A DNA stretch of 64,000 bases from a virus. Both the position numbers and the translations under genes were made by a program. Below the pieces are notes generated by a model. The model was not told the origin of the DNA. It made no database searches and saw only the letters and a program-made list of their open reading frames with translations. The DNA is taken from IMG/VR virus record IMGVR_UViG_3300024999_001421, one strand, 5' to 3'. Of the stretch, positions 46,983 through 55,452 are shown in pieces. The stretch's first letter is position 1. The number at the start of each line of letters is the position of its first letter.

Positions 46983-49900
46983 GTGATTTTATTGGCCTAC
47001 GATTTATACAAAGGGCCGTATAGTAACTTTAATTCATACAGTCAAAGTAGAGATACTTCCAGGGAAGATGCCATTAGAAGGTTGCTTAGTTTTTCGAGCA
47101 ACCAACAAATAACTAACGATCCTGGCATGGCAGATGTAGATTATAGCACTACAATGCCTCCTGTACCGGAAATGAAAGTACCTATGCCACCTAAAAGAAG
47201 TCTATATGAATCTCTGGATAATAAATTTGGCGGGGTGTTGCCGGGAGGTACTATATTTAAGCCAGGAGATTACGGAATAAGCGAAAAGTTTGCGGAAAAT
47301 AACCCAACTATTAGTCGGGGATTAGCGACGATTGCTAGTCCTTTCAAGGCTATCATGGATAATCCATTTATGAATCGTTCAAGTCAAACTGCTGGGGAAA
47401 TCGTTACATTAACCGACAGGCCAGAAAAGACTTCTACCGGTAATGATAACAGGGACATGATTGCCGATTTAGTTGGTGGACTTGTTGGTTTTGGTGCTAA
47501 TCCTGAGAGCGCAGGGGCAAAACTATTTGGACTTAGCGAAAAAGCTATAGCTAAAGGATTGCAGTATATCCCCAAAGCTGAAAATTTGCCTAAAATATTG
47601 CAAACAGGTGCTAAGATTGGCGGGGCGACAGTCCCGTATGAAGCAACCGTAGCGGCACTGAACGACCGTGAATTTAAACCGGGAGAAGCGGCAGAGGCAG
47701 GCTTGTCTAATGCTGCCCTGGCTATGCTATTACATGGTGCAGGGAGTGCCTTAAGCAAACGCAATACACCGCCCAAAACTACTGATTTTAAGATGCCTGA
47801 GTATAAAGAACCGGATATGTCAGATTTTACGCCGGAGGAACTGGCTAATTTCAGGAGTAAGTCAAGTCTTGGGGAGATGATAACTCCTGAGACAGTCACC
47901 ACTAAAGAGGTAGCGGCGGCGCAGAGAACGCTTAGAAATACGCTGAATGTCGAAAAGGCCAATCAGATACTAAACGAATTCCCGGAACTTGAAAGCGAGT
48001 TTCCGCACTTTAGACTACAGCAAGGCGATACAGTTATTCTGCCAAATGGAAAAGAAGCAATAGTTAAAACAGCGGACAAGATGATTATTCAAGTTGATGT
48101 TGATGGAAAGACGGTTAGTATTGGTCGTAAAGTCGTTAAGGTTCCGGAGGTTAAGACAGAAGTTCCGGAGGTTGTGAGTGAGGCAATGCCGGAAGTGCCG
48201 GAGACTACGACTCCTGAGATTAAACAGCAACCCGTTATTAGCGATGTTCCGCGACTAAATAACAGAAGTGGTGCCGAGACTTTTGCTGACGAAAATATAC
48301 CTGATGTATCAGTCAAGCAGGAACCAATTGTCGCGCAGGAAATATTGCCGCAATTAACAGGCGAACCTGTTAAATTAACAGCAGAACAGCAACAGTCGAT
48401 AGATAAGTTAGTCAAGGATTCTGGATTCAATTCCCTCGAGGATGCTCGAAAGGCAATAACATCATATAGAAATATGGTTAATGACGGACAGGTATTTTAT
48501 CGTGGGGAAATGGTTCCAGAGGGAGCAAAAGGTAAGAAAAATAATATTATCCGTCAAAAAAGCATAGAAGATGTTCTTAATTGGACTCCTGATAATCTAA
48601 TCAAGAAGCATGAAGCAAACATAGCAAGACAAGAAAATATAAAGGAAAAGGCACAGGAAATTCTTGATACTACTGATCCGCTTAAGGATTACGGTAAACG
48701 CGACAATGCTAAAATGGAAATAGAGAATTCTAACTATTGGATTGGTAATTATCAAAAGGAGATTGATAAACTTAGGAAGCAGATAAAAAATGACGAAGAA
48801 ATAAGTAAGATAGCAGAAGAAAACAATCTCCTTTACATTACAAGTCAAAAAGAAAATGCCCTGTCTTATGCTAAGCAACTCGAAGGTAAGTCTGAAATAT
48901 TATTTGGAGAGAAGCCAGAAGGCTATAACCCAACCGTGTATGAGTTAAAAGGAAAATTTGACAATACTTTTGACTTGACTAAGTATGAGAATGGTCTAAT
49001 AAGTTTAGACGAAGTAGATAACCTATTAAACGACTTAGGAATTAAGCTAGATGATAAGCAGTTTAACGAATTTATAAATAGACTTGGTATTGATGAAATG
49101 GAACAGAATAGCGGTCAAGTATTTGGTCTATTCCGTGGTGAAAACCTTCCTATCATGCTTAATGCGCTTAAAAAAGGTAAATACGATTCGGTTCATTATG
49201 CGGAAGGATTGCAAGATAACTGGATCGTCTTAGATAGAAATAAGGTTGCTATTAAGGATGATTTAGATAAGGCAAGTAAACTTGATTCTGTAACGCAAGA
49301 CAAGATACTTAGATTTAAGTCTGGGCAGGACAAACCAGCACCTCCCGAAGTATTAAAGGACTATCCTGAGTTATCCGCAGAAGTAGGAAGTAAGTCTACA
49401 TCGGAAACTAAAGTCATGGCAGAGGATATCGGACTAAAACCGGAAAAAGCGGAAACTTATGACGAAGGGACGATTGGGGCGGCAAGGTTAACCGTACCGG
49501 AAAAGCAATCAACTCTCCCCGGTACTGACGAAAAAGTCAGGTCGTTTAATGTTTCCGTTGCTAATTCTGAAATAGCTTCTCCGGACGTTAAAATAGCCAA
49601 TATTATGGAAATGTATCCAGGAGGACTAGGGGCATATAGCCCCATAAAACTACGTGAGGTAGACGTTGAAGCACAAAATTTAATTTCCCAGAACATAGAA
49701 AAGGCTACTCGCTTTGTTCTTGAAGGAGAAGAACCTTCTGCACTTAAAACAGCAACAGGTATTCGTTTAATTGAAAAATACCAAAACGCCGGTAATTACG
49801 AGAGGGCCATAGATGTTTCGCTAGCTATGGCAGAGAGACTAACGAAAGTTGGTCAAGAAATTAGTGCCGCTAGAATTATGGGGGCACTAAAACCTGATGG

Positions 49901-51959
49901 TATTTTAGTTTTTGCACAACGACAAATAAATAAACTTAACAGCGGTAAAAAATTCGGTAAGGACATTGAATTAACTCCCGAAATGGCTAAAATACTAAAG
50001 GAACTTGCCAATAGACTTAAAAATGCAACCGATGAAAATGCCAGATTGGAGGCAGGTCAAGAATTACAGGGAGCACTGAATTCTCTAAAACCTTCTGGGA
50101 TACTTAGAAAAATAGATTCGGCGCAAACCATTTCGATGTTATTAAATCCTAAAACTTTAATTAGGAACACAGTTGGCAATGAAATGTTTTATCGCCTAGA
50201 AAGGTTAAATAAAATAGTTGCTACACCTATTGACTGGACAGTTAGTAAACTGACCGGAGCAGACCGCCAGGTAACATTTAGAACGGCTGGGCAAGGTGGT
50301 TACTGGCAGGGATTTTTCAAGGGCGCAAAAGCTGGTTGGAAAGGTGTTAACCCAGAAGGTATACAGACACAATACGACTTGGGTCGATCACCGGCATTTA
50401 ATATTAATCCCGAAAGAGCTAAAAACGCAAATACGACAACTGGGAAAGTTGTTGGTGGCACATTTGATTTTGCTGAAAAAACTATGGCTTATCTTGAAAG
50501 AACTCTAGGTGCAGCCTTGAAAGGTTTTGATTTTGCGGCATATACCAGGGCAAAAAATAACACTATTGGAGAACTAGCTACCTTAAAGGCTATAAATACT
50601 ACTGGAAAAGCTGATAAGACTATAGTACAGGGGTTTATGAAAGATATTGAGGATAATGTCCTGAATATTGCTGACCAATATGGAAAATATGTTACATTTC
50701 AAGATAACAATGTTATTTCTCGTGGACTACAAGGAGTAAAGGATGCCTTAAACATAAATCAGGATTGGGGTGTAGGGAGTGTTATTCTTAAATTCCCACG
50801 CACACCGGGGGCTTTAATAGCAAGAGGATTAGAATACTCGCCTGCTGGCTTTCTAAAGTCTGCCTACGAACTAGCAAAAGTAACAGGTATATTTAAGGGC
50901 AATCCTAGTCAAAGAGAAACAACACTTGCGTTATCAAGGGCCATAACTGGCACAGCAGGATTAACTGGATTAGGTTATTTTCTTGCCGATCAAGGAATTA
51001 TAACAGGTTCAATAGAAAAAGATAAAGACCTAAGAGATTTACAGCGACAGACAGGGCAAGGACAATATCGTATAAATCTAAGCGCATTATCTAGGTGGGT
51101 GCAAAGCGGTTTTAATAAAGATACTGCGCAACCTATTGCTGGTGATAAAATAATTAACTATGATTGGGCGCAGCCAATTGCAATGGCACTAAGCATAGGC
51201 GCAAATATCAGCAAAAACCTTAATGATGGACAAGGCAAACTAGATAATATATCCTCAACTATTGCTGGTAGTCTTGAAGGTGCTTTAAATACAGTTGCCG
51301 AGCAACCTGTTTTGCAAGGTCTTACACGGGCAGTACAAGGATATGATATGGGAGAAAATGTAACCAATACAGTTAAAAATATTCCCTCTAGTTTTGCACC
51401 AACATTAGCTAATCAAGTAAGACAGTATATAGACAATACAACTCGCTCAACATATGACCCCTCATGGGTAGAGGAATCGAAAAATAAAGTTAAAGGCAAA
51501 ATACCGGGAATTGCTGGCAACTTGCCTGTCGCATATGATACTTTCGGAAAACCGAAGGAAATATATCAAGATGGAGGTAATGATGCTTTCAATGTATTCT
51601 TTAATCCAGCATTTACATCGAAATACAAAGTTCCAGAAGAAGCGAAGTTGGCCATAGAAACATTTAGAAATACCGGAGAAACAAAGCAACTACCTAGAGT
51701 TGCATCTAAGTCATTTACTATTAGTGGGCAAAAAATAGAACTAACTGCCAAAGAATATAGCGATATGCAAAGGATTGTTGGAGAAAGAACACTAAAAGAA
51801 TTTTCCAGAATACCGCAAAATGCTAGTGATGACAAAAAGATACGCAGGATGATCGATGCTTTAGGTAAAGCCGGACTAGAGGGCAGAAAATTTGTATTAC
51901 AACAAAGGGGTATTGGCTTTAGGAATAAGGGCAATGGGATAGTGCTTAGACAACAATAA
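46983..51959 (+). CDS. large internal virion/ejection polyvalent protein with ART-like domain
   Basis: 1658 aa; FYRG...LYITS...ALSYA...VYEL...FDL...KYDSV; helical C-terminal half (MLLNPKT.IRN, FPRTP). Confidence 0.7.
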   Translation: MILLAYDLYKGPYSNFNSYSQSRDTSREDAIRRLLSFSSNQQITNDPGMADVDYSTTMPPVPEMKVPMPPKRSLYESLDNKFGGVLPGGTIFKPGDYGISEKFAENNPTISRGLATIASPFKAIMDNPFMNRSSQTAGEIVTLTDRPEKTSTGNDNRDMIADLVGGLVGFGANPESAGAKLFGLSEKAIAKGLQYIPKAENLPKILQTGAKIGGATVPYEATVAALNDREFKPGEAAEAGLSNAALAMLLHGAGSALSKRNTPPKTTDFKMPEYKEPDMSDFTPEELANFRSKSSLGEMITPETVTTKEVAAAQRTLRNTLNVEKANQILNEFPELESEFPHFRLQQGDTVILPNGKEAIVKTADKMIIQVDVDGKTVSIGRKVVKVPEVKTEVPEVVSEAMPEVPETTTPEIKQQPVISDVPRLNNRSGAETFADENIPDVSVKQEPIVAQEILPQLTGEPVKLTAEQQQSIDKLVKDSGFNSLEDARKAITSYRNMVNDGQVFYRGEMVPEGAKGKKNNIIRQKSIEDVLNWTPDNLIKKHEANIARQENIKEKAQEILDTTDPLKDYGKRDNAKMEIENSNYWIGNYQKEIDKLRKQIKNDEEISKIAEENNLLYITSQKENALSYAKQLEGKSEILFGEKPEGYNPTVYELKGKFDNTFDLTKYENGLISLDEVDNLLNDLGIKLDDKQFNEFINRLGIDEMEQNSGQVFGLFRGENLPIMLNALKKGKYDSVHYAEGLQDNWIVLDRNKVAIKDDLDKASKLDSVTQDKILRFKSGQDKPAPPEVLKDYPELSAEVGSKSTSETKVMAEDIGLKPEKAETYDEGTIGAARLTVPEKQSTLPGTDEKVRSFNVSVANSEIASPDVKIANIMEMYPGGLGAYSPIKLREVDVEAQNLISQNIEKATRFVLEGEEPSALKTATGIRLIEKYQNAGNYERAIDVSLAMAERLTKVGQEISAARIMGALKPDGILVFAQRQINKLNSGKKFGKDIELTPEMAKILKELANRLKNATDENARLEAGQELQGALNSLKPSGILRKIDSAQTISMLLNPKTLIRNTVGNEMFYRLERLNKIVATPIDWTVSKLTGADRQVTFRTAGQGGYWQGFFKGAKAGWKGVNPEGIQTQYDLGRSPAFNINPERAKNANTTTGKVVGGTFDFAEKTMAYLERTLGAALKGFDFAAYTRAKNNTIGELATLKAINTTGKADKTIVQGFMKDIEDNVLNIADQYGKYVTFQDNNVISRGLQGVKDALNINQDWGVGSVILKFPRTPGALIARGLEYSPAGFLKSAYELAKVTGIFKGNPSQRETTLALSRAITGTAGLTGLGYFLADQGIITGSIEKDKDLRDLQRQTGQGQYRINLSALSRWVQSGFNKDTAQPIAGDKIINYDWAQPIAMALSIGANISKNLNDGQGKLDNISSTIAGSLEGALNTVAEQPVLQGLTRAVQGYDMGENVTNTVKNIPSSFAPTLANQVRQYIDNTTRSTYDPSWVEESKNKVKGKIPGIAGNLPVAYDTFGKPKEIYQDGGNDAFNVFFNPAFTSKYKVPEEAKLAIETFRNTGETKQLPRVASKSFTISGQKIELTAKEYSDMQRIVGERTLKEFSRIPQNASDDKKIRRMIDALGKAGLEGRKFVLQQRGIGFRNKGNGIVLRQQ

Positions 51960-52346: not shown

Positions 52347-52550
52347 TTATTTACCGTCGACATATTCAAATAGATCTCCCGGTTGACATCTAAGTGTAGC
52401 ACAAAGACGATCTATAACTTCCAATGAAACATATTCGTTGGTATTTAGTTTTGCCATAGTGCCTCCAGATATTTTGGCTTGTTTCATTAAATCTTGTTTT
52501 TTTATATTTTTATCAATCAACATTTTTTGGAATAGTTTATAGCTAATCAA
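52347..52550 (-). CDS. Cro/C1-type HTH (HTH_26) regulator
   Basis: ISYKLF..L....IKKQDL...VSLEVIDRLC..L.CQPGDLFEYV. Confidence 0.88.
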   Translation of the reverse strand: MISYKLFQKMLIDKNIKKQDLMKQAKISGGTMAKLNTNEYVSLEVIDRLCATLRCQPGDLFEYVDGK

Positions 52551-52719
52551 ATTAATTTACCTCCTGTTTACTATATCTTAAATATATATATTATTATATC
52601 AAAAAATATTCGACAAATCAAAGATAATTATATTGACTTATATTTATGATATGTTATAATAATATTTAAGAAGTTGTAAATAATTACATACCAATAAGGT
52701 GTCTTAGGAGGAATACGGC

Positions 52720-53352
52720 ATGGGCAAAAACATTCTAACGGCAACAATCGAAATAAAAGGAATTAGACCTCTGTTGTGGCATGTATTTGGTCCTGATTCT
52801 TTGCCACTTGAAAAACAAGAGAGGACAGGAGTTGCCGGACACGATCCGGAGGAATGGCGCAAAACATATGTAGCAACCAAGAGTGGACAGTTATATTTAC
52901 CTGGTTCTTATTTCTTCGGAACATACATTGCAGGCGCTAAGTTCATTAAGAAGGGCAAAGGCTCAATTCAAAGTTTGGTATCAGCAACATTGCAGGTACT
53001 TGATGATAAGGTATTGGTTAATCGTAATTTACCGGAAGATATTCACGAAAAACCGCATAAGTATTATAATGCTGACGAAGAATTGGTTTATATTGACGTT
53101 CGCTCAGTACGTAATCCGTCAACCAAGTCTAGAAACATTCGTTATCGCGTTGCTACTTGCCCCGGATGGGAGTGTAAATTTTCAATAATGTTCGATAAAA
53201 CGGTTGTTAGTCGCCAAGAGATGCACTCTGCTATTATTGATGCAGGTAAATTGTCCGGCATTGGCGATGGTCGTTCTGTTGGATATGGAAGATTTGATGT
53301 ATTATCTTTTGAAATACAGGAGGAAGATAATGCCGAGGAAAAGACCTCCTAA
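52720..53352 (+). CDS. solitary Cas7/Csm3-like RAMP protein
   Basis: IEIKGIRPLL (beta1), LYLPGSYF, C-terminal Gly-rich loop GIGDGRSVGYGRF. Confidence 0.8.
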   Translation: MGKNILTATIEIKGIRPLLWHVFGPDSLPLEKQERTGVAGHDPEEWRKTYVATKSGQLYLPGSYFFGTYIAGAKFIKKGKGSIQSLVSATLQVLDDKVLVNRNLPEDIHEKPHKYYNADEELVYIDVRSVRNPSTKSRNIRYRVATCPGWECKFSIMFDKTVVSRQEMHSAIIDAGKLSGIGDGRSVGYGRFDVLSFEIQEEDNAEEKTS

Positions 53353-53620
53353 AGAAATATGGCAAAAACTAAGAACAATAGTCTGGGAACGAGATAAGGG
53401 TAAATGTAAGCACTGTGGCAAACTAGTTGACTTAGATAAATGTCACATAGATCATATTCGTTCTGGTAAGTTAGGAACAAATAAGTTAAGCAATCTTAGA
53501 ACTCTATGTCGTTGCTGTCATGTTTTGCGTGAGGATGGGCGACATAGAGGGATGATTAGCAAGGCACTTAAAGATGGTATTATTCCTCCGAATTGGCGTG
53601 AGTTGGTTTGGGGTGATTAA
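53330..53620 (+). CDS. small HNH endonuclease (96 aa) overlapping RAMP stop
   Basis: W..LR..VWERDKGKCKHCG...HIDHI...GTNKLSNLRTLCRCCH; AGGAGG RBS inside RAMP gene. Confidence 0.9.
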   Translation: MPRKRPPKEIWQKLRTIVWERDKGKCKHCGKLVDLDKCHIDHIRSGKLGTNKLSNLRTLCRCCHVLREDGRHRGMISKALKDGIIPPNWRELVWGD

Positions 53621-53639
53621 TATACTGTATAATTAATCA

Positions 53640-53734
53640 GGTCGGGAACGAAGCGGAATGGTGAGTTGCGGTCCGGAGTGGTACGGAGAGCTGAGGCATG
53701 GCACGTTAAGGTGCGCAATGAAATGGTAAGGATT
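53640..53734 (+). repeat. pentameric G(G)HNN array 1 (19 units), candidate guide RNA
   Basis: G at every 5th base 19/19, GG 13/19; TATAAT at 53628-33 immediately upstream. Confidence 0.85.
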
Positions 53735-53738
53735 CGAA

Positions 53739-53796
53739 ACTACCCTTCGGGGTAGTCCTACAGGTTAGCCTCCTGTAGTTGACAAGATGGGCTAAC
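53739..53796 (+). ncRNA. structured linker: UUCG hairpin + H-type pseudoknot
   Basis: ACTACCC-TTCG-GGGTAGT; CTACAGG-ttagcct-CCTGTAG with loop complementary to GGGCTAA at 53789-95. Confidence 0.75.
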
Positions 53797-53798
53797 AT

Positions 53799-53883
53799 GG
53801 AAAGGTCTGGACTGGAACGGAACGTAGGGGCATGGAAAGTTCCGGAGTGGTTTGGTTCGGATTGGCTAGTTAAGGCAAGGGTA
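53799..53883 (+). repeat. pentameric G(G)HNN array 2 (17 units), candidate guide RNA
   Basis: G at every 5th base 17/17, GG 14/17. Confidence 0.85.
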
Positions 53884-53885
53884 AT

Positions 53886-53925
53886 AAGAGAAATAACCAC
53901 TTCATATGAAGTGGTTATTTCTCTT
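53886..53925. terminator. perfect 40-bp palindrome, likely bidirectional terminator
   Basis: AAGAGAAATAACCACTTCAT|ATGAAGTGGTTATTTCTCTT between convergent units. Confidence 0.75.
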
Positions 53926-54124
53926 CCGGCACATATTCAAATAAATCTCCTGGCTGACATTTGAGGACTTGACACAACTTGCTGATCTGCTCTATCTCTA
54001 TTCTCCTAGAAGTACCGTGCCATAACTGACTTACTGTATTTGGCCTAATTCCTGTCATAATGGATAATTGTTTCATTGTTATTTTTCTTTTACCCATCAT
54101 ATCTGATACTTTTATTATCATCAT
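53915..54124 (-). CDS. Cro/C1-type HTH (HTH_26) regulator
   Basis: QLSIMTGIRPNTVS...LC.VL.CQPGDLFEYV. Confidence 0.88.
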   Translation of the reverse strand: MMIIKVSDMMGKRKITMKQLSIMTGIRPNTVSQLWHGTSRRIEIEQISKLCQVLKCQPGDLFEYVPEEK

Positions 54125-54292
54125 TGCATTTTACACCTCCTACCGCATACAGTATAACACTAAGAGTTATCGAATTGCAATATTAAATTTCAAAATAACT
54201 CCTAAAGCTATTGACATGAAATTTATAAAGATATATAATAACCTTAGAGGTTAAAGCATATATATAGAAGTTAAATACGGGGAGGTAGAAAG

Positions 54293-54577
54293 ATGGAAAA
54301 AAGTTTCAAGGACAGTTTTGCGGAGTTATGCGCTGACCGGGCGAGTGATGCAATCGTATCGGCGCGACAGAAGGATACTGAGTATGTCGAGGTGATGGAC
54401 AAGCTAAAAATTGCAAGTAATCGGGTTAGTCAATTATTGAGTCCAGATAATCGGGGATTACTTACACAATTACTTGATGCTTATTCCTACAGGCAGATTT
54501 GCGAAACTCGTTTAGCATATGAGCAGGGCATGAGGGATGGGTTGCGCTTGAATAAGATAGTGGGAGGTATGGCATGA
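54293..54577 (+). CDS. hypothetical (DUF6809-like) protein
   Basis: AYEQGMRDG motif; GGGGAGG RBS. Confidence 0.55.
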   Translation: MEKSFKDSFAELCADRASDAIVSARQKDTEYVEVMDKLKIASNRVSQLLSPDNRGLLTQLLDAYSYRQICETRLAYEQGMRDGLRLNKIVGGMA

Positions 54578-55452
54578 ACAATCAACTTATTCCGGTAGAG
54601 CAGAAACTTGTTAACTTTAATGGTGCTGAGATTATGGCGGTTAAGGCCAGTGACGATAAAGTTTACGTGGGAGTTAGTTGGGTGTGTGATGGTTTAGGCC
54701 TTAAAGAAAACCAAACCAAAGCACAGAGAGACAAAATTAATAGCGATATTGTACTTTCTAAAGGGGGGCGTAAAATCTCCACCCTTACTGCCGGGGGAAA
54801 TCAAGATATTTTAGTTCTAGAGTTAGACTTTCTCCCGATATGGTTGGCTAAAATTAATGCCAATATCATTGAGAGCGAAGAAGTGCAGAACAGACTTGTC
54901 GAATACCAATTAAAGGCGAAGGACGTTTTAGCAGAAGCATTTTTACATAAATCGAAGTCGCTTCGCCGCCGGATGCCGACATGGGATCGTGAAGCAATGG
55001 CAGAAATAAGATTCGCTAAAGAATTTGCCAAGGCAATAGGTATTAGACCGGAACGTGCGGTTGCAGTTGCCATTGCCAGAACTGAGAAGGAAACAGGCAG
55101 ACAGCTAACCGACTACCGCAAACTTTTACCTGCTGTCAGCGAAGAAGATGCCGAGATTTTAACCGCTAGTCAAATAGGTGAGCAGTTAGACATGAAATCC
55201 AGCGCAGTTAATTTACTACTAGAGGAAATGGGTTTTCAATACGGCATAAGAGAAGCAGGTAAGAAACCTGGGACTGAAAGATTGGTAAAGCGAAACCCAT
55301 GGAAATTGACCGAAAAGGGCAAAGAATACGGAATGATGCAGGATGCCGCTAATAATAAGTGGGAAGGATTTCAGATACTTTGGAAACCAAAGGTCCTTAA
55401 TGCGATCAATGACTTTCTTAACAGTAAGTCTGGTGCCGGTCAGGAGGTTTGA
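54574..55452 (+). CDS. phage antirepressor (P22 AR N-terminal domain)
   Basis: VNFNG.EI...VCDGLGL...LPIWLAKI...YQLKAKDVLAEAF; WKLTEKGKEYG. Confidence 0.85.
   Translation: MNNQLIPVEQKLVNFNGAEIMAVKASDDKVYVGVSWVCDGLGLKENQTKAQRDKINSDIVLSKGGRKISTLTAGGNQDILVLELDFLPIWLAKINANIIESEEVQNRLVEYQLKAKDVLAEAFLHKSKSLRRRMPTWDREAMAEIRFAKEFAKAIGIRPERAVAVAIARTEKETGRQLTDYRKLLPAVSEEDAEILTASQIGEQLDMKSSAVNLLLEEMGFQYGIREAGKKPGTERLVKRNPWKLTEKGKEYGMMQDAANNKWEGFQILWKPKVLNAINDFLNSKSGAGQEV

What the first reader, a model, noticed from the sequence alone, without database searches (positions are those of the whole stretch)
53799..53883. Array 2: second, different guide with the same periodicity (multiplexing)
Seen: GGA AA|GGT CT|GGA CT|GGA AC|GGA AC|GTA GG|GGC AT|GGA AA|GTT CC|GGA GT|GGT TT|GGT TC|GGA TT|GGC TA|GTT AA|GGC AA|GGG TA. 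It has the same scaffold and similar length as array 1 but an unrelated NN string (AA CT CT AC AC GG AT AA CC GT TT TC TT TA AA AA TA). Both arrays contain GTTAAGG towards the 3' end. Inference: a conserved frame with independent variable content argues for information storage rather than a decaying microsatellite.
Basis: partly seen in the sequence, partly recalled or inferred. Interest (0 to 1): 0.8.

Follow-up and report, generated by a model that had tools for sequence, protein, structure and literature searches.

The report
Second VIPR guide RNA in a phage
The tract is a real guide RNA of a VIPR system, a phage-borne relative of CRISPR first described in 2026 preprints, and its variable dinucleotides spell a gene of another mobile element; it is a well-supported new example of a known system, not a new kind.

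Summary
Window 53799-53883 holds 17 pentamers G(G/T)NNN. Together with array 1 (53640-53734) it gives the strongest period-5 G signal in the window.

The locus is a VIPR system (bioRxiv 10.64898/2026.04.26.720920). It contains:
- a Vipr RAMP gene (52720-53352), homologous to the solved SUSP1 Vipr;
- a 96-aa HNH accessory gene;
- two vrRNA arrays, separated by a type II hammerhead-like ribozyme and closed by a hairpin.

Across 97 arrays from related loci, G1 and G2 are conserved, position 3 is mostly a pyrimidine, and positions 4-5 are random.

Under the published "1-nt skip" rule, units 1-13 of array 2 match 26/26 bases, in codon register, in an LPD38 polyvalent-protein gene on two public contigs. 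Array 1 matches 29/30 in the large virion-protein gene of two related phages, starting exactly where that gene diverges from the window phage's own copy. There is no self-target.

A 96%-identical relative carries different NN strings that hit the same two genes at other sites.

The last four units of each array do not match the targets, and NN of the last units is partly conserved across the family. I read them as a 3' handle.

Cleavage of the target by the HNH protein is inferred, not shown.

Verdict: new member of a known kind. Other notes of this scan on this same window had flagged the locus.

The parts
52633..52660 (+). Promoter-like site upstream of vipr (TTGACT, 16-nt spacer, TATAAT, with TG). 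Likely the operon promoter.
   Evidence: 11 of 12 consensus matches, the best site in 52500-54200. Consensus match only; function not shown.
52720..53352 (+). vipr: a 210-aa single-RRM RAMP protein with a Cas7-like fold. Predicted to be the filament subunit that binds one pentamer per protomer.
   Evidence: A profile of 26 family members against SUSP1 Vipr gives hhalign probability 97.2%, E 4e-11. PDB 36pp_D 'SUSP1 Vipr protein' matches at E 7.7e-9 over the full length. The AF2 model (pLDDT 70) has Csm3/Cas7 chains as top Foldseek hits, E about 1e-8. phrog_4652 matches at E 2e-13.
53330..53620 (+). vap: a 96-aa HNH endonuclease-like accessory gene whose start overlaps the end of vipr by 23 nt.
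   Evidence: Pfam HNH E 3.7e-6. NCBIfam IscB HNH region E 1.6e-7. A homolog lies on the vipr strand beside vipr in 57 of 66 fetched loci.
53640..53734 (+). vrRNA array 1, 19 pentamers. Units 1-15 (53640-53714) are the guide; units 16-19 are read as the 3' handle and overlap hammerhead stem II.
   Evidence: Units 1-15 match 29/30 at 1-nt skip on L077 and L080.
53732..53796 (+). Type II hammerhead-like ribozyme between the arrays. The core is UUGACAA (U3...A8) instead of CUGAUGA. A loop/tail pseudoknot pairs 53765-53770 with 53790-53795. Predicted cleavage is after C53757.
   Evidence: Model R1, built without the window from the inter-array elements of relatives (seven are Rfam Hammerhead_II hits in L045), hits here at 53.1 bits, E 2e-13, over the full length. 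Rfam itself gives no hit in the window. Cleavage is not shown.
53799..53883 (+). vrRNA array 2, the finding itself: 17 pentamers. Units 1-13 (53799-53863) are the guide; units 14-17 (53864-53883) are read as the 3' handle.
   Evidence: Units 1-13 match 26/26 at 1-nt skip on L081 and L082, in codon register.
53886..53925 (.). Perfect 19-bp palindromic hairpin that closes the unit, between convergent genes. Terminator-like and possibly a 3' cap of vrRNA2.
   Evidence: the hairpin is picked up by several hairpin models. It is conserved in L004 and in L080. It is not called by the simple terminator scan, because it is AT-rich and lacks a T run.

Best explanation
Window 53799-53883 is the second guide RNA (vrRNA) of a phage-borne VIPR system.

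Proposed mechanism:
- vipr, the HNH gene and both arrays are transcribed rightward as one unit.
- A type II hammerhead-like element between the arrays is predicted to cut after C53757. This would separate vrRNA1 from vrRNA2.
- Vipr protomers are expected to polymerise along each array, one per pentamer. They hold G1, G2 and base 3 and expose bases 4-5.
[quoted passage not shown] - For array 2 the target is the KLLTTGINPVFSL motif of an LPD38 'polyvalent' protein gene of another mobile element.
- For array 1 the target is the allele-specific part of a related phage's large virion/ejection-protein gene.
- The last four units would act as a conserved 3' handle.
- The 96-aa HNH protein is proposed to cut the bound DNA.

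Shown here by computation: homology of the protein to the solved SUSP1 Vipr; conservation of the G frame and randomness of NN among relatives; guide turnover; the target matches and their controls; absence of a self-target; homology of the linker to hammerheads.

Taken from the VIPR preprints (established for phage SUSP1 only): filament formation, base flipping, dsDNA binding and silencing.

Inferred: transcription and processing in this phage, the role of the handle, and HNH cleavage (about 50% likely, against silencing only).
For: Protein:
- The family profile matches SUSP1 Vipr (hhalign 97.2%, E 4e-11; PDB 36pp_D E 7.7e-9).
- The fold is Cas7/Csm3-like.
- The SUSP1 RNA- or DNA-contact residues H17, K33, R138, D177 and R179 align to H21, R35, R143, D183 and R185. 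These are invariant or nearly so in the family, with R/K at position 35.

Arrays:
- 56 of 62 distinct related contigs carry G-phased pentamer arrays on the vipr strand beside the gene.
- A logo over 1499 units gives G1 97%, G2 82%, position 3 C/T 82%, and positions 4-5 at 0.08 and 0.03 bits.

Turnover:
- Window against L004: vipr is 91% identical at DNA level and third codon positions are 80% identical. NN positions are 20/72 identical.

Targets:
- Array 2 units 1-13 match 26/26 on L081/L082 in frame.
- Controls for array 2: other skip lengths reach at most 17/26, 200 unit-order shuffles at most 18/26, and unit positions 3-4 reach 16/26.
- Array 1 units 1-15 match 29/30 on L077 and L080. These two contigs differ from each other only at skipped bases within the site.
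- L004's different guides hit the same two genes: 27/30 on L080, on the very next 15 codons, and 23/26 on L081.
- The best self-match in the window is 62%, within the shuffle null.
- The array 1 site begins exactly where the target ortholog diverges from the window's own gene.

Against: - There are no expression data for this phage.
- Position 3 is A in 16 of 36 units here, whereas the SUSP1 pocket excludes purines. SUSP1 W178, which stacks on G2, is an invariant Gly in this clade. RNA recognition must therefore differ in detail.
- The hammerhead core departs from consensus at C3 and G8, and stem II has only 2-3 pairs. Self-cleavage is uncertain.
- The array 2 target contigs are short Logan assemblies of unknown host, so co-occurrence with this phage is not shown.
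- The simple scan found no promoter directly before array 1.
- Nothing here shows that the HNH protein acts with the RNP.
Confidence: 0.87

Rival explanations
1. The RNA is a VIPR guide, but the system acts only as a transcriptional silencer, as shown for SUSP1. On this reading the small HNH protein has another role, such as a homing or packaging-type nuclease or a DNA-binding accessory. Everything else is as in the best explanation.
For: Only silencing has been demonstrated experimentally for VIPR. Small HNH genes are common in phages for unrelated reasons; one search lists many HNH PHROGs, one of them annotated as terminase small subunit.
Against: The HNH gene overlaps vipr by 23 nt. It is kept beside vipr in 57 of 66 fetched loci from many phyla, sometimes with an array between the two genes. 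Both Cys pairs and the His/Asn motif residues are present. The preprint itself reads nuclease accessory genes as target destruction.
Confidence: 0.4
2. The pentamer tract is only a protein-binding scaffold or sponge. A multimeric protein would read the phased G residues, as TRAP reads its triplet repeats. The NNN bases would be unconstrained filler that drifts neutrally and carries no target information.
For: Positions 4-5 are statistically random across relatives, which is also what neutral filler would look like.
Against: Filler would not match foreign genes 26/26 and 29/30 in codon register only at skip 1. Nor would a relative's different filler hit the same two genes. NN identity between close relatives is 28%, far below the 80% seen at neutral third codon positions. 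That means replacement, not drift.
Confidence: 0.03
3. The tract is a decaying G-rich microsatellite or a run of two-tier G-quadruplex motifs (GGN3GG) with a structural or regulatory role in DNA or RNA, unrelated to the upstream genes.
For: GGNNN repeats could in principle form two-quartet G-quadruplexes (general knowledge, not tested here).
Against: G1 is kept in 36/36 units, while G2 is replaced in 9/36 units that still sit in register and still match the target. The arrays follow the vipr gene in 56 of 62 contigs across phyla. The period is never broken by indels.
Confidence: 0.02
4. The tract is translated: the 61-codon ORF 53779-53964 (+) or the 64-codon ORF 53706-53900 (-) encodes a small protein.
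For: Both ORFs exist in the mechanical ORF list.
Against: A 5-nt period puts the conserved G in all three codon positions in turn. The NN content is fully replaced in a 96%-identical relative, so no protein sequence is conserved.
Confidence: 0.01

Closest known systems
VIPR system of Escherichia phage SUSP1 (type II; bioRxiv 10.64898/2026.04.26.720920 and 10.64898/2026.04.26.720927; PDB 36pp)
   Same: - A homologous ~200-aa single-RRM RAMP.
- A two-gene operon followed by pentamer arrays with the unit GG-x-NN.
- NN hypervariable among relatives.
- The 1-nt skip code, with the skipped base on the codon wobble position.
- Targets in competing mobile elements and no self-target.
- Several vrRNAs per locus.
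   Different: - The accessory gene is a 96-aa HNH nuclease, not the DNA-binding vap1.
- Position 3 is H (A in 16 of 36 units), not Y.
- SUSP1 W178, E71 and M72 align to Gly184, Ser63 and Tyr64 here.
- G2 is replaceable.
- The arrays are 19 and 17 units long, and the last 4 units do not match the targets.
- The arrays are separated by a hammerhead-like element instead of each ending in a pseudoknotted tail.
Nuclease-associated VIPR types (III and V) and hammerhead-interspersed VIPR arrays (types I and V) of the same preprint
   Same: An HNH-domain accessory protein and ribozyme-separated vrRNAs are both described there. Alternative repeat consensi such as NNNGG are also mentioned.
   Different: Those types are reported as enriched in cellular defence islands and as targeting viruses. 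This locus sits in a phage accessory-gene slot and targets a sister phage's ortholog. I could not assign the type, because the classification figures and tables are not held.
Class 1 CRISPR backbone (Cas7/Csm3 filament on crRNA)
   Same: RAMP fold. One protomer per fixed RNA step, with periodic flipped bases (from the paper).
   Different: The step is 5 nt with three sequestered bases, against 6 nt with one. There is no repeat-spacer array, no cas1/cas2 and no other cas genes nearby. The guide is noncontiguous.
Type II hammerhead ribozyme (Rfam RF02276)
   Same: The order GAAAC, stem III, UC, stem I, core, stem II. A loop-I/3'-tail pseudoknot. A full-length match to a model built from related inter-array hammerheads.
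   Different: The core reads UUGACAA (U3 and A8 instead of C3 and G8). There is no Rfam hit. The U3-A8 covariation is known in natural hammerheads (PMC4209133), but activity is untested here.

Membership tests
VIPR system | A Vipr protein: a small single-RRM RAMP homologous to characterised Vipr proteins | tested here: met
   hhalign probability 97.2%, E 4e-11 against SUSP1 Vipr. PDB 36pp_D 'SUSP1 Vipr protein' E 7.7e-9, residues 9-192 against 6-190. Foldseek top hits are Csm3/Cas7 chains.
VIPR system | Conservation of the residues that hold G1/G2 and the target backbone in SUSP1 (H17, K33, R138, D177, R179) | tested here: met
   They align to H21, R35 (R/K in the family), R143, D183 and R185, which are invariant or nearly so among 26 family members (residue roles).
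VIPR system | A pyrimidine-only pocket for base 3 and a Trp that stacks on G2 (SUSP1 E71, M72, W178) | tested here: not met
   These residues align to S63, Y64 and an invariant G184. Consistently, base 3 is A in 16/36 units and G2 is replaced in 9/36 units in the window. This is a clade-level variation. The preprint lists related consensi such as NNNGG.
VIPR system | Tandem 5-nt units with a fixed GG(Y) and a variable NN, at least 4 units, beside vipr on the same strand | tested here: met
   19 and 17 units, starting 20 nt after the HNH stop. Arrays are present in 56 of 62 related contigs.
VIPR system | NN hypervariable and scaffold conserved among relatives | tested here: met
   Logo over 1499 units. 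Window against L004: NN 20/72 identical, against 80% identity at third codon positions of the flanking genes.
VIPR system | Natural targets under the 1-nt skip rule with at least 80% NN match, in foreign elements, and no self-target | tested here: met
   Array 2: 26/26 over units 1-13, 28/34 (82%) over all 17 units, on L081/L082. Array 1: 29/30 over units 1-15, 31/38 (82%) over all units, on L077/L080. Controls. Best self-match 62%.
VIPR system | An invariant structured 3' tail after the repeat tract | tested here: inconclusive
   NN of the last 2-4 units is partly conserved (AA-rich), and the last 4 units of both window arrays do not match the targets. Array 1 is followed by the hammerhead-like element and array 2 by a hairpin. 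No SUSP1-type tail is present.
VIPR system | An accessory (vap) gene in an operon with vipr | tested here: met
   An HNH gene overlaps the end of vipr. A homolog is conserved in 57 of 66 fetched loci.
VIPR system | vrRNA is expressed, co-purifies with Vipr, and the RNP binds dsDNA | not testable with these tools
   Needs small-RNA sequencing, pull-down and binding assays.
Hammerhead ribozyme, type II | The conserved core (CUGANGA ... GAAA), three stems with stem II open, and a cleavage-site UH | tested here: inconclusive
   Stems I and III, GAAA, the UC site and the pseudoknot are present, and model R1 gives 53.1 bits, E 2e-13. The core has U3/A8 and stem II has only 2-3 pairs. Rfam gives no hit.
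CRISPR-Cas | A repeat-spacer array plus cas genes, including an adaptation module | tested here: not met
   No direct-repeat array, and no Cas family above threshold apart from weak RAMP similarity.

The most novel reading that the evidence does not exclude
This widespread clade has more than 1,200 homologs (E <= 0.001) in public assemblies. The relatives fetched here come from viral contigs and from MAGs and genomes of many phyla. The clade may be a VIPR type armed with a 96-aa HNH. In that case the Vipr-vrRNA filament would direct DNA cleavage, not only silencing, of a rival phage's virion-gene allele. It would do so with a relaxed G-(G)-H scaffold code and ribozyme-processed multiplex guides. 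That would make it one of the smallest natural RNA-guided nucleases (210 aa plus 96 aa). It would also be a case of allele-specific warfare between sister phages.
Probability: 0.4. Interest if true: 0.65.

Novelty: new member of a known kind. Interest (0 to 1): 0.45.

Why it matters
VIPR was described only in 2026, and experiments so far cover phage SUSP1 and a Pseudomonas prophage clade. This locus adds four things.
- A fully worked natural example from a different, very large HNH-linked clade, with both guides assigned to natural targets.
- Evidence that sister phages keep the target gene for each array position while replacing the guide sequence.
- A case where the guide starts exactly where the rival's ortholog diverges from the carrier's own gene, which would give self/non-self discrimination.
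- A relaxed scaffold (A tolerated at base 3, G2 dispensable) together with matching substitutions in the protein.

These points give concrete constructs for testing whether HNH-associated VIPRs cut DNA. They do not change the concept.

Tried and rejected
- Tandem Repeats Finder found nothing.
- Rfam has no family for the arrays and no hammerhead hit in the window.
- blastn of the locus against GenBank phages found no match.
- No whole genome is held for the window, so no host genome could be searched.
- IMG/VR scan with array 2 units 6-14: two hits that did not extend, judged chance. This pattern included unit 14, which turned out to lie outside the matched part.
- IMG/VR scan with array 1 units 1-9: two hits, 21 and 26 of 38, not convincing. 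Three of the five hits for units 5-13 were also chance.
- JGI metagenome scans: a 12-unit exact pattern gave 0 hits. A degenerate pattern returned only the source contigs of L068 and L069.
- The L001 guides found no target among the held loci.
- No array 2 site (3 mismatches or fewer) and no LPD38 homolog on the L080 and L077 contigs. The two arrays therefore may aim at different elements. Those contigs are only 66% and 46% complete.
- The two target proteins are not detectably related to each other.
- CsrA-type sponge, TRAP-like attenuator and G-quadruplex readings were considered early, and dropped once the targets were found.
- No complex prediction was run.

Full report
**1. Observation**

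Window 53799-53883 reads as 17 pentamers. A period-5 G score is 31/34 here and 28/34 for array 1 (53640-53734, 19 units). The window mean is 8.0 with sd 2.7, and the next best value on either strand is 21. An array caller finds no other array of 8 or more units in the 64 kb. Tandem Repeats Finder sees nothing, because only the G frame repeats.

The tract is intergenic. Upstream lie a 210-aa ORF (52720-53352) and a small HNH ORF whose likely ATG start is at 53330 and which ends at 53620. Downstream lie a perfect palindromic hairpin (53886-53925) and a convergent HTH_26 gene.

**2. What the neighbours are**

The 210-aa protein gives only sub-threshold Cas6/Csm4 (RAMP) hits in Pfam, PADLOC and NCBIfam. 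It matches phrog_4652 (function unknown) at E 2e-13. It belongs to a large family: 1293 proteins at E <= 0.001, and the 120 best listed are about 55-66% identical apart from two closer ones. None of them is named.

A full-text search led to bioRxiv 10.64898/2026.04.26.720920, which describes VIPR systems:
- a ~20-kDa ancestral RAMP (Vipr);
- an accessory gene (vap);
- vrRNAs made of 9-16 GGY/NN pentamers, whose NN bases pair with dsDNA under a "1-nt skip" rule (target xNN-xNN, with the skipped base usually the codon wobble position);
- natural targets in competing phages, satellites and prophages, and no self-targets;
- seven types, some with nuclease accessory genes (an HNH domain is named) and some with hammerhead-interspersed arrays.

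A companion paper gives the structure. There is one protomer per repeat, G1, G2 and Y3 are sequestered, and N4 and N5 are exposed.

**3. Membership of the protein**

tblastn against GenBank phages hit a hypothetical gene of phage phiSUSP1 and of Felixounavirus-like phages of Escherichia and Salmonella. That gene (L005:2072-2659) is flanked by pentamer arrays, as published. A 26-sequence profile of the window's family aligns with it over the full length (hhalign 97.2%, E 4e-11). The profile also hits PDB 36pp_D, "SUSP1 Vipr protein", at E 7.7e-9. The AlphaFold model (pLDDT 70) has Csm3/Cas7 chains as its best Foldseek matches.

The SUSP1 contact residues H17, K33, R138, D177 and R179 align to H21, R35, R143, D183 and R185, which are conserved in the family. 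In contrast, W178 (which stacks on G2) and E71/M72 (the pyrimidine pocket) align to an invariant Gly184 and to Ser63/Tyr64.

**4. The arrays in relatives**

I fetched 66 related loci, from 62 distinct contigs, out of IMG/VR and GTDB genomes. They come from Bacillota, Chloroflexota, Cyanobacteriota, Acidobacteriota, Armatimonadota and other phyla. Of the 62 contigs, 56 carry G-phased pentamer arrays on the vipr strand next to the gene.

Over 97 distinct arrays (1499 units):

| Unit position | Composition | Information |
|---|---|---|
| 1 | G 97% | 1.73 bits |
| 2 | G 82% | 1.05 bits |
| 3 | C 45%, T 37%, A 13%, G 5% | 0.36 bits |
| 4 | near uniform | 0.08 bits |
| 5 | near uniform | 0.03 bits |

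. This is the published GGY/NN logo. In the window, position 3 is A 16, T 14, C 5 and G 1, that is "GGH".

NN of the last two to four units is partly conserved (AA in 32, 29 and 19 of 79 arrays at units -2, -3 and -4).

An HNH homolog lies beside vipr in 57 of 66 fetched loci, sometimes with an array between the two genes. It is therefore the accessory gene of this clade.

**5. Guide turnover**

L004 has a Vipr that is 96% identical. Its vipr and HNH genes are 91% and 88% identical to the window's at DNA level, and third codon positions are about 80% identical. Its arrays have the same numbers of units, 19 and 17. G1 is identical in 36/36 units, but NN in only 20/72 bases, which is chance level. 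The NN content has been replaced, not mutated slowly.

**6. Targets**

There is no self-target. The best window match is 62% for array 2 and 58% for array 1, both within the shuffled-guide range.

*Array 2.*
- An exact IMG/VR scan with units 1-9 at 1-nt skip gave two hits.
- Both lie in codon register on the same conserved motif (KLLTTGINP) of roughly 1050-aa LPD38 "polyvalent" proteins.
- The guide predicted Val, Phe, Ser (TCN) and Leu (TTR) next.
- A protein search around the motif returned P0122, which carries exactly KLLTTGINPVFSL.
- Its DNA, on Logan contigs L081 and L082, matches units 1-13 at 26/26 and all 17 units at 28/34, or 82%.

*Array 1.*
- Units 5-13 hit five IMG/VR contigs.
- Two of them, L077 and L080, extend to 29/30 over units 1-15 (31/38 overall), in frame on the peptide RTAIDAPVTDDMTKA of a 2029-aa ORF.
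- L077 and L080 differ from each other only at skipped bases within the site.

*Controls on the target loci.* Skips of 0, 2 and 3 give at most 18/30 and 17/26. Two hundred unit-order shuffles give at most 21/30 and 18/26. Using unit positions 3-4 instead of 4-5 gives 18/30 and 16/26.

Units with GT, GA or GC at positions 1-2 still match in register, so G2 is not essential.

The last four units of both arrays do not match.

**7. Independent confirmation from a relative**

I scanned 85 guides from all loci against all held DNA. L004's array 1 hit L080 at 27/30, on the very next 15 codons (GLLVDIYAEGPGAYK). L004's array 2 hit L081 at 23/26, on FAGRPIVPGYMQGM. Both are in codon register. By a binomial estimate (my own calculation), the chance expectation for these over about 1.4 million positions is about 1e-7 and 2e-5. 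So the two sister phages use different guides against the same two genes, array position by array position.

**8. Who is targeted**

L077 and L080 are relatives of the window phage, with 71-88% DNA identity in several syntenic blocks. The 2029-aa gene is the ortholog of the window's own large ORF at 47001-51956, with 44-54% amino-acid identity. The two proteins are nearly identical up to ...EKVRSF and then diverge. The array 1 site begins at that point. The guide therefore distinguishes the rival's allele from the carrier's own.

L080 comes from the same metagenome (3300024999) as L004's contig. In L080, the slot that holds VIPR in the window holds a different cassette.

The window has no homolog of the LPD38 gene. 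No LPD38 homolog was found on the incomplete L077 and L080 contigs either.

**9. The linker**

Between the arrays, the window, L001, L004, L016 and L045 share the order GAAAC, hairpin, UC, hairpin, CUGAUGA-like core. L060 has the same order with longer stems. L045 has seven Rfam Hammerhead_II hits that alternate with arrays. A covariance model built from ten such elements, without the window, hits 53732-53796 at 53.1 bits and E 2e-13 over its full length.

The window core is UUGACAA, that is U3 and A8 in place of the C3-G8 pair. The same covariation is reported in natural hammerheads (PMC4209133). The loop UUAGCC (53765-53770) can pair with GGCUAA (53790-53795). Cleavage after C53757 would release vrRNA1 and vrRNA2. 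Activity is not shown.

**10. Transcription**

The best promoter-like site lies upstream of vipr, at 52633-52660. A TATAAT at 53628-53633 lacks a good -35 element and is deleted in L004 and L001. An operon transcript is therefore the simpler reading. This is inferred.

**11. Verdict**

It is a vrRNA of a VIPR system, a kind described in 2026 preprints and recovered again by a language-model survey. It is a new member, from an HNH-linked clade with a relaxed scaffold, and natural targets are now assigned to both guides. HNH-mediated cleavage of the target remains a hypothesis.

Noticed in passing
window 47001-51956 (+) and L080:3612-9701 (-): The array 1 target is the ortholog of the window's own large ORF (1652 codons open). 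The two proteins are almost identical up to the motif EKVRSF and then diverge sharply, and the guide site starts at that boundary. This suggests a mosaic, allele-specific segment in this virion/ejection-type protein.
   Followed up: partly
L080:2270-3610 (read on the - strand): In the related target phage, the slot that holds VIPR in the window holds another cassette: a secreted protein with a Cu_amine_oxidN1 domain and a small Cys-rich ORF. It ends in a hairpin homologous to window 53886-53925. This looks like an accessory-gene hot spot.
   Followed up: partly
L045:4866-5814 (Marinithermofilum abyssi): Seven Rfam Hammerhead_II ribozymes are spread along the vrRNA array region downstream of a vipr-HNH pair, one of them ahead of the first array. 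This is a fully ribozyme-processed multiplex locus in a cultured bacterium, and a good experimental model for this clade.
   Followed up: partly
window 52347-52550 (-) and 53915-54124 (-): Two paralogous HTH_26 (Cro/CI-type) genes bracket the VIPR cassette, and their products end in similar motifs (QPGDLFEYV). Whether one of them regulates the cassette, or whether they mark an insertion by duplication, was not examined.
   Followed up: no
L012, L017/L046, L020, L025, L028 (- strand arrays 1-3 kb from vipr): Several related loci carry additional pentamer arrays on the opposite strand, at a distance from vipr. These may be solo or divergently transcribed vrRNAs.
   Followed up: no
L031, L032, L041, L047, L065 (vipr-HNH loci without called arrays): Five loci have vipr and HNH homologs, but my GG-based caller found no array. 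They may use a non-GG scaffold, as reported for divergent VIPRs (10.64898/2026.10.21.760802), or the arrays may lie outside the fetched DNA.
   Followed up: no
window 54574-55452 (+): A gene with a P22 antirepressor N-terminal domain (Pfam E 9e-22), preceded by a DUF6809 gene, lies just downstream of the cassette. This fits a temperate-phage regulatory region.
   Followed up: no
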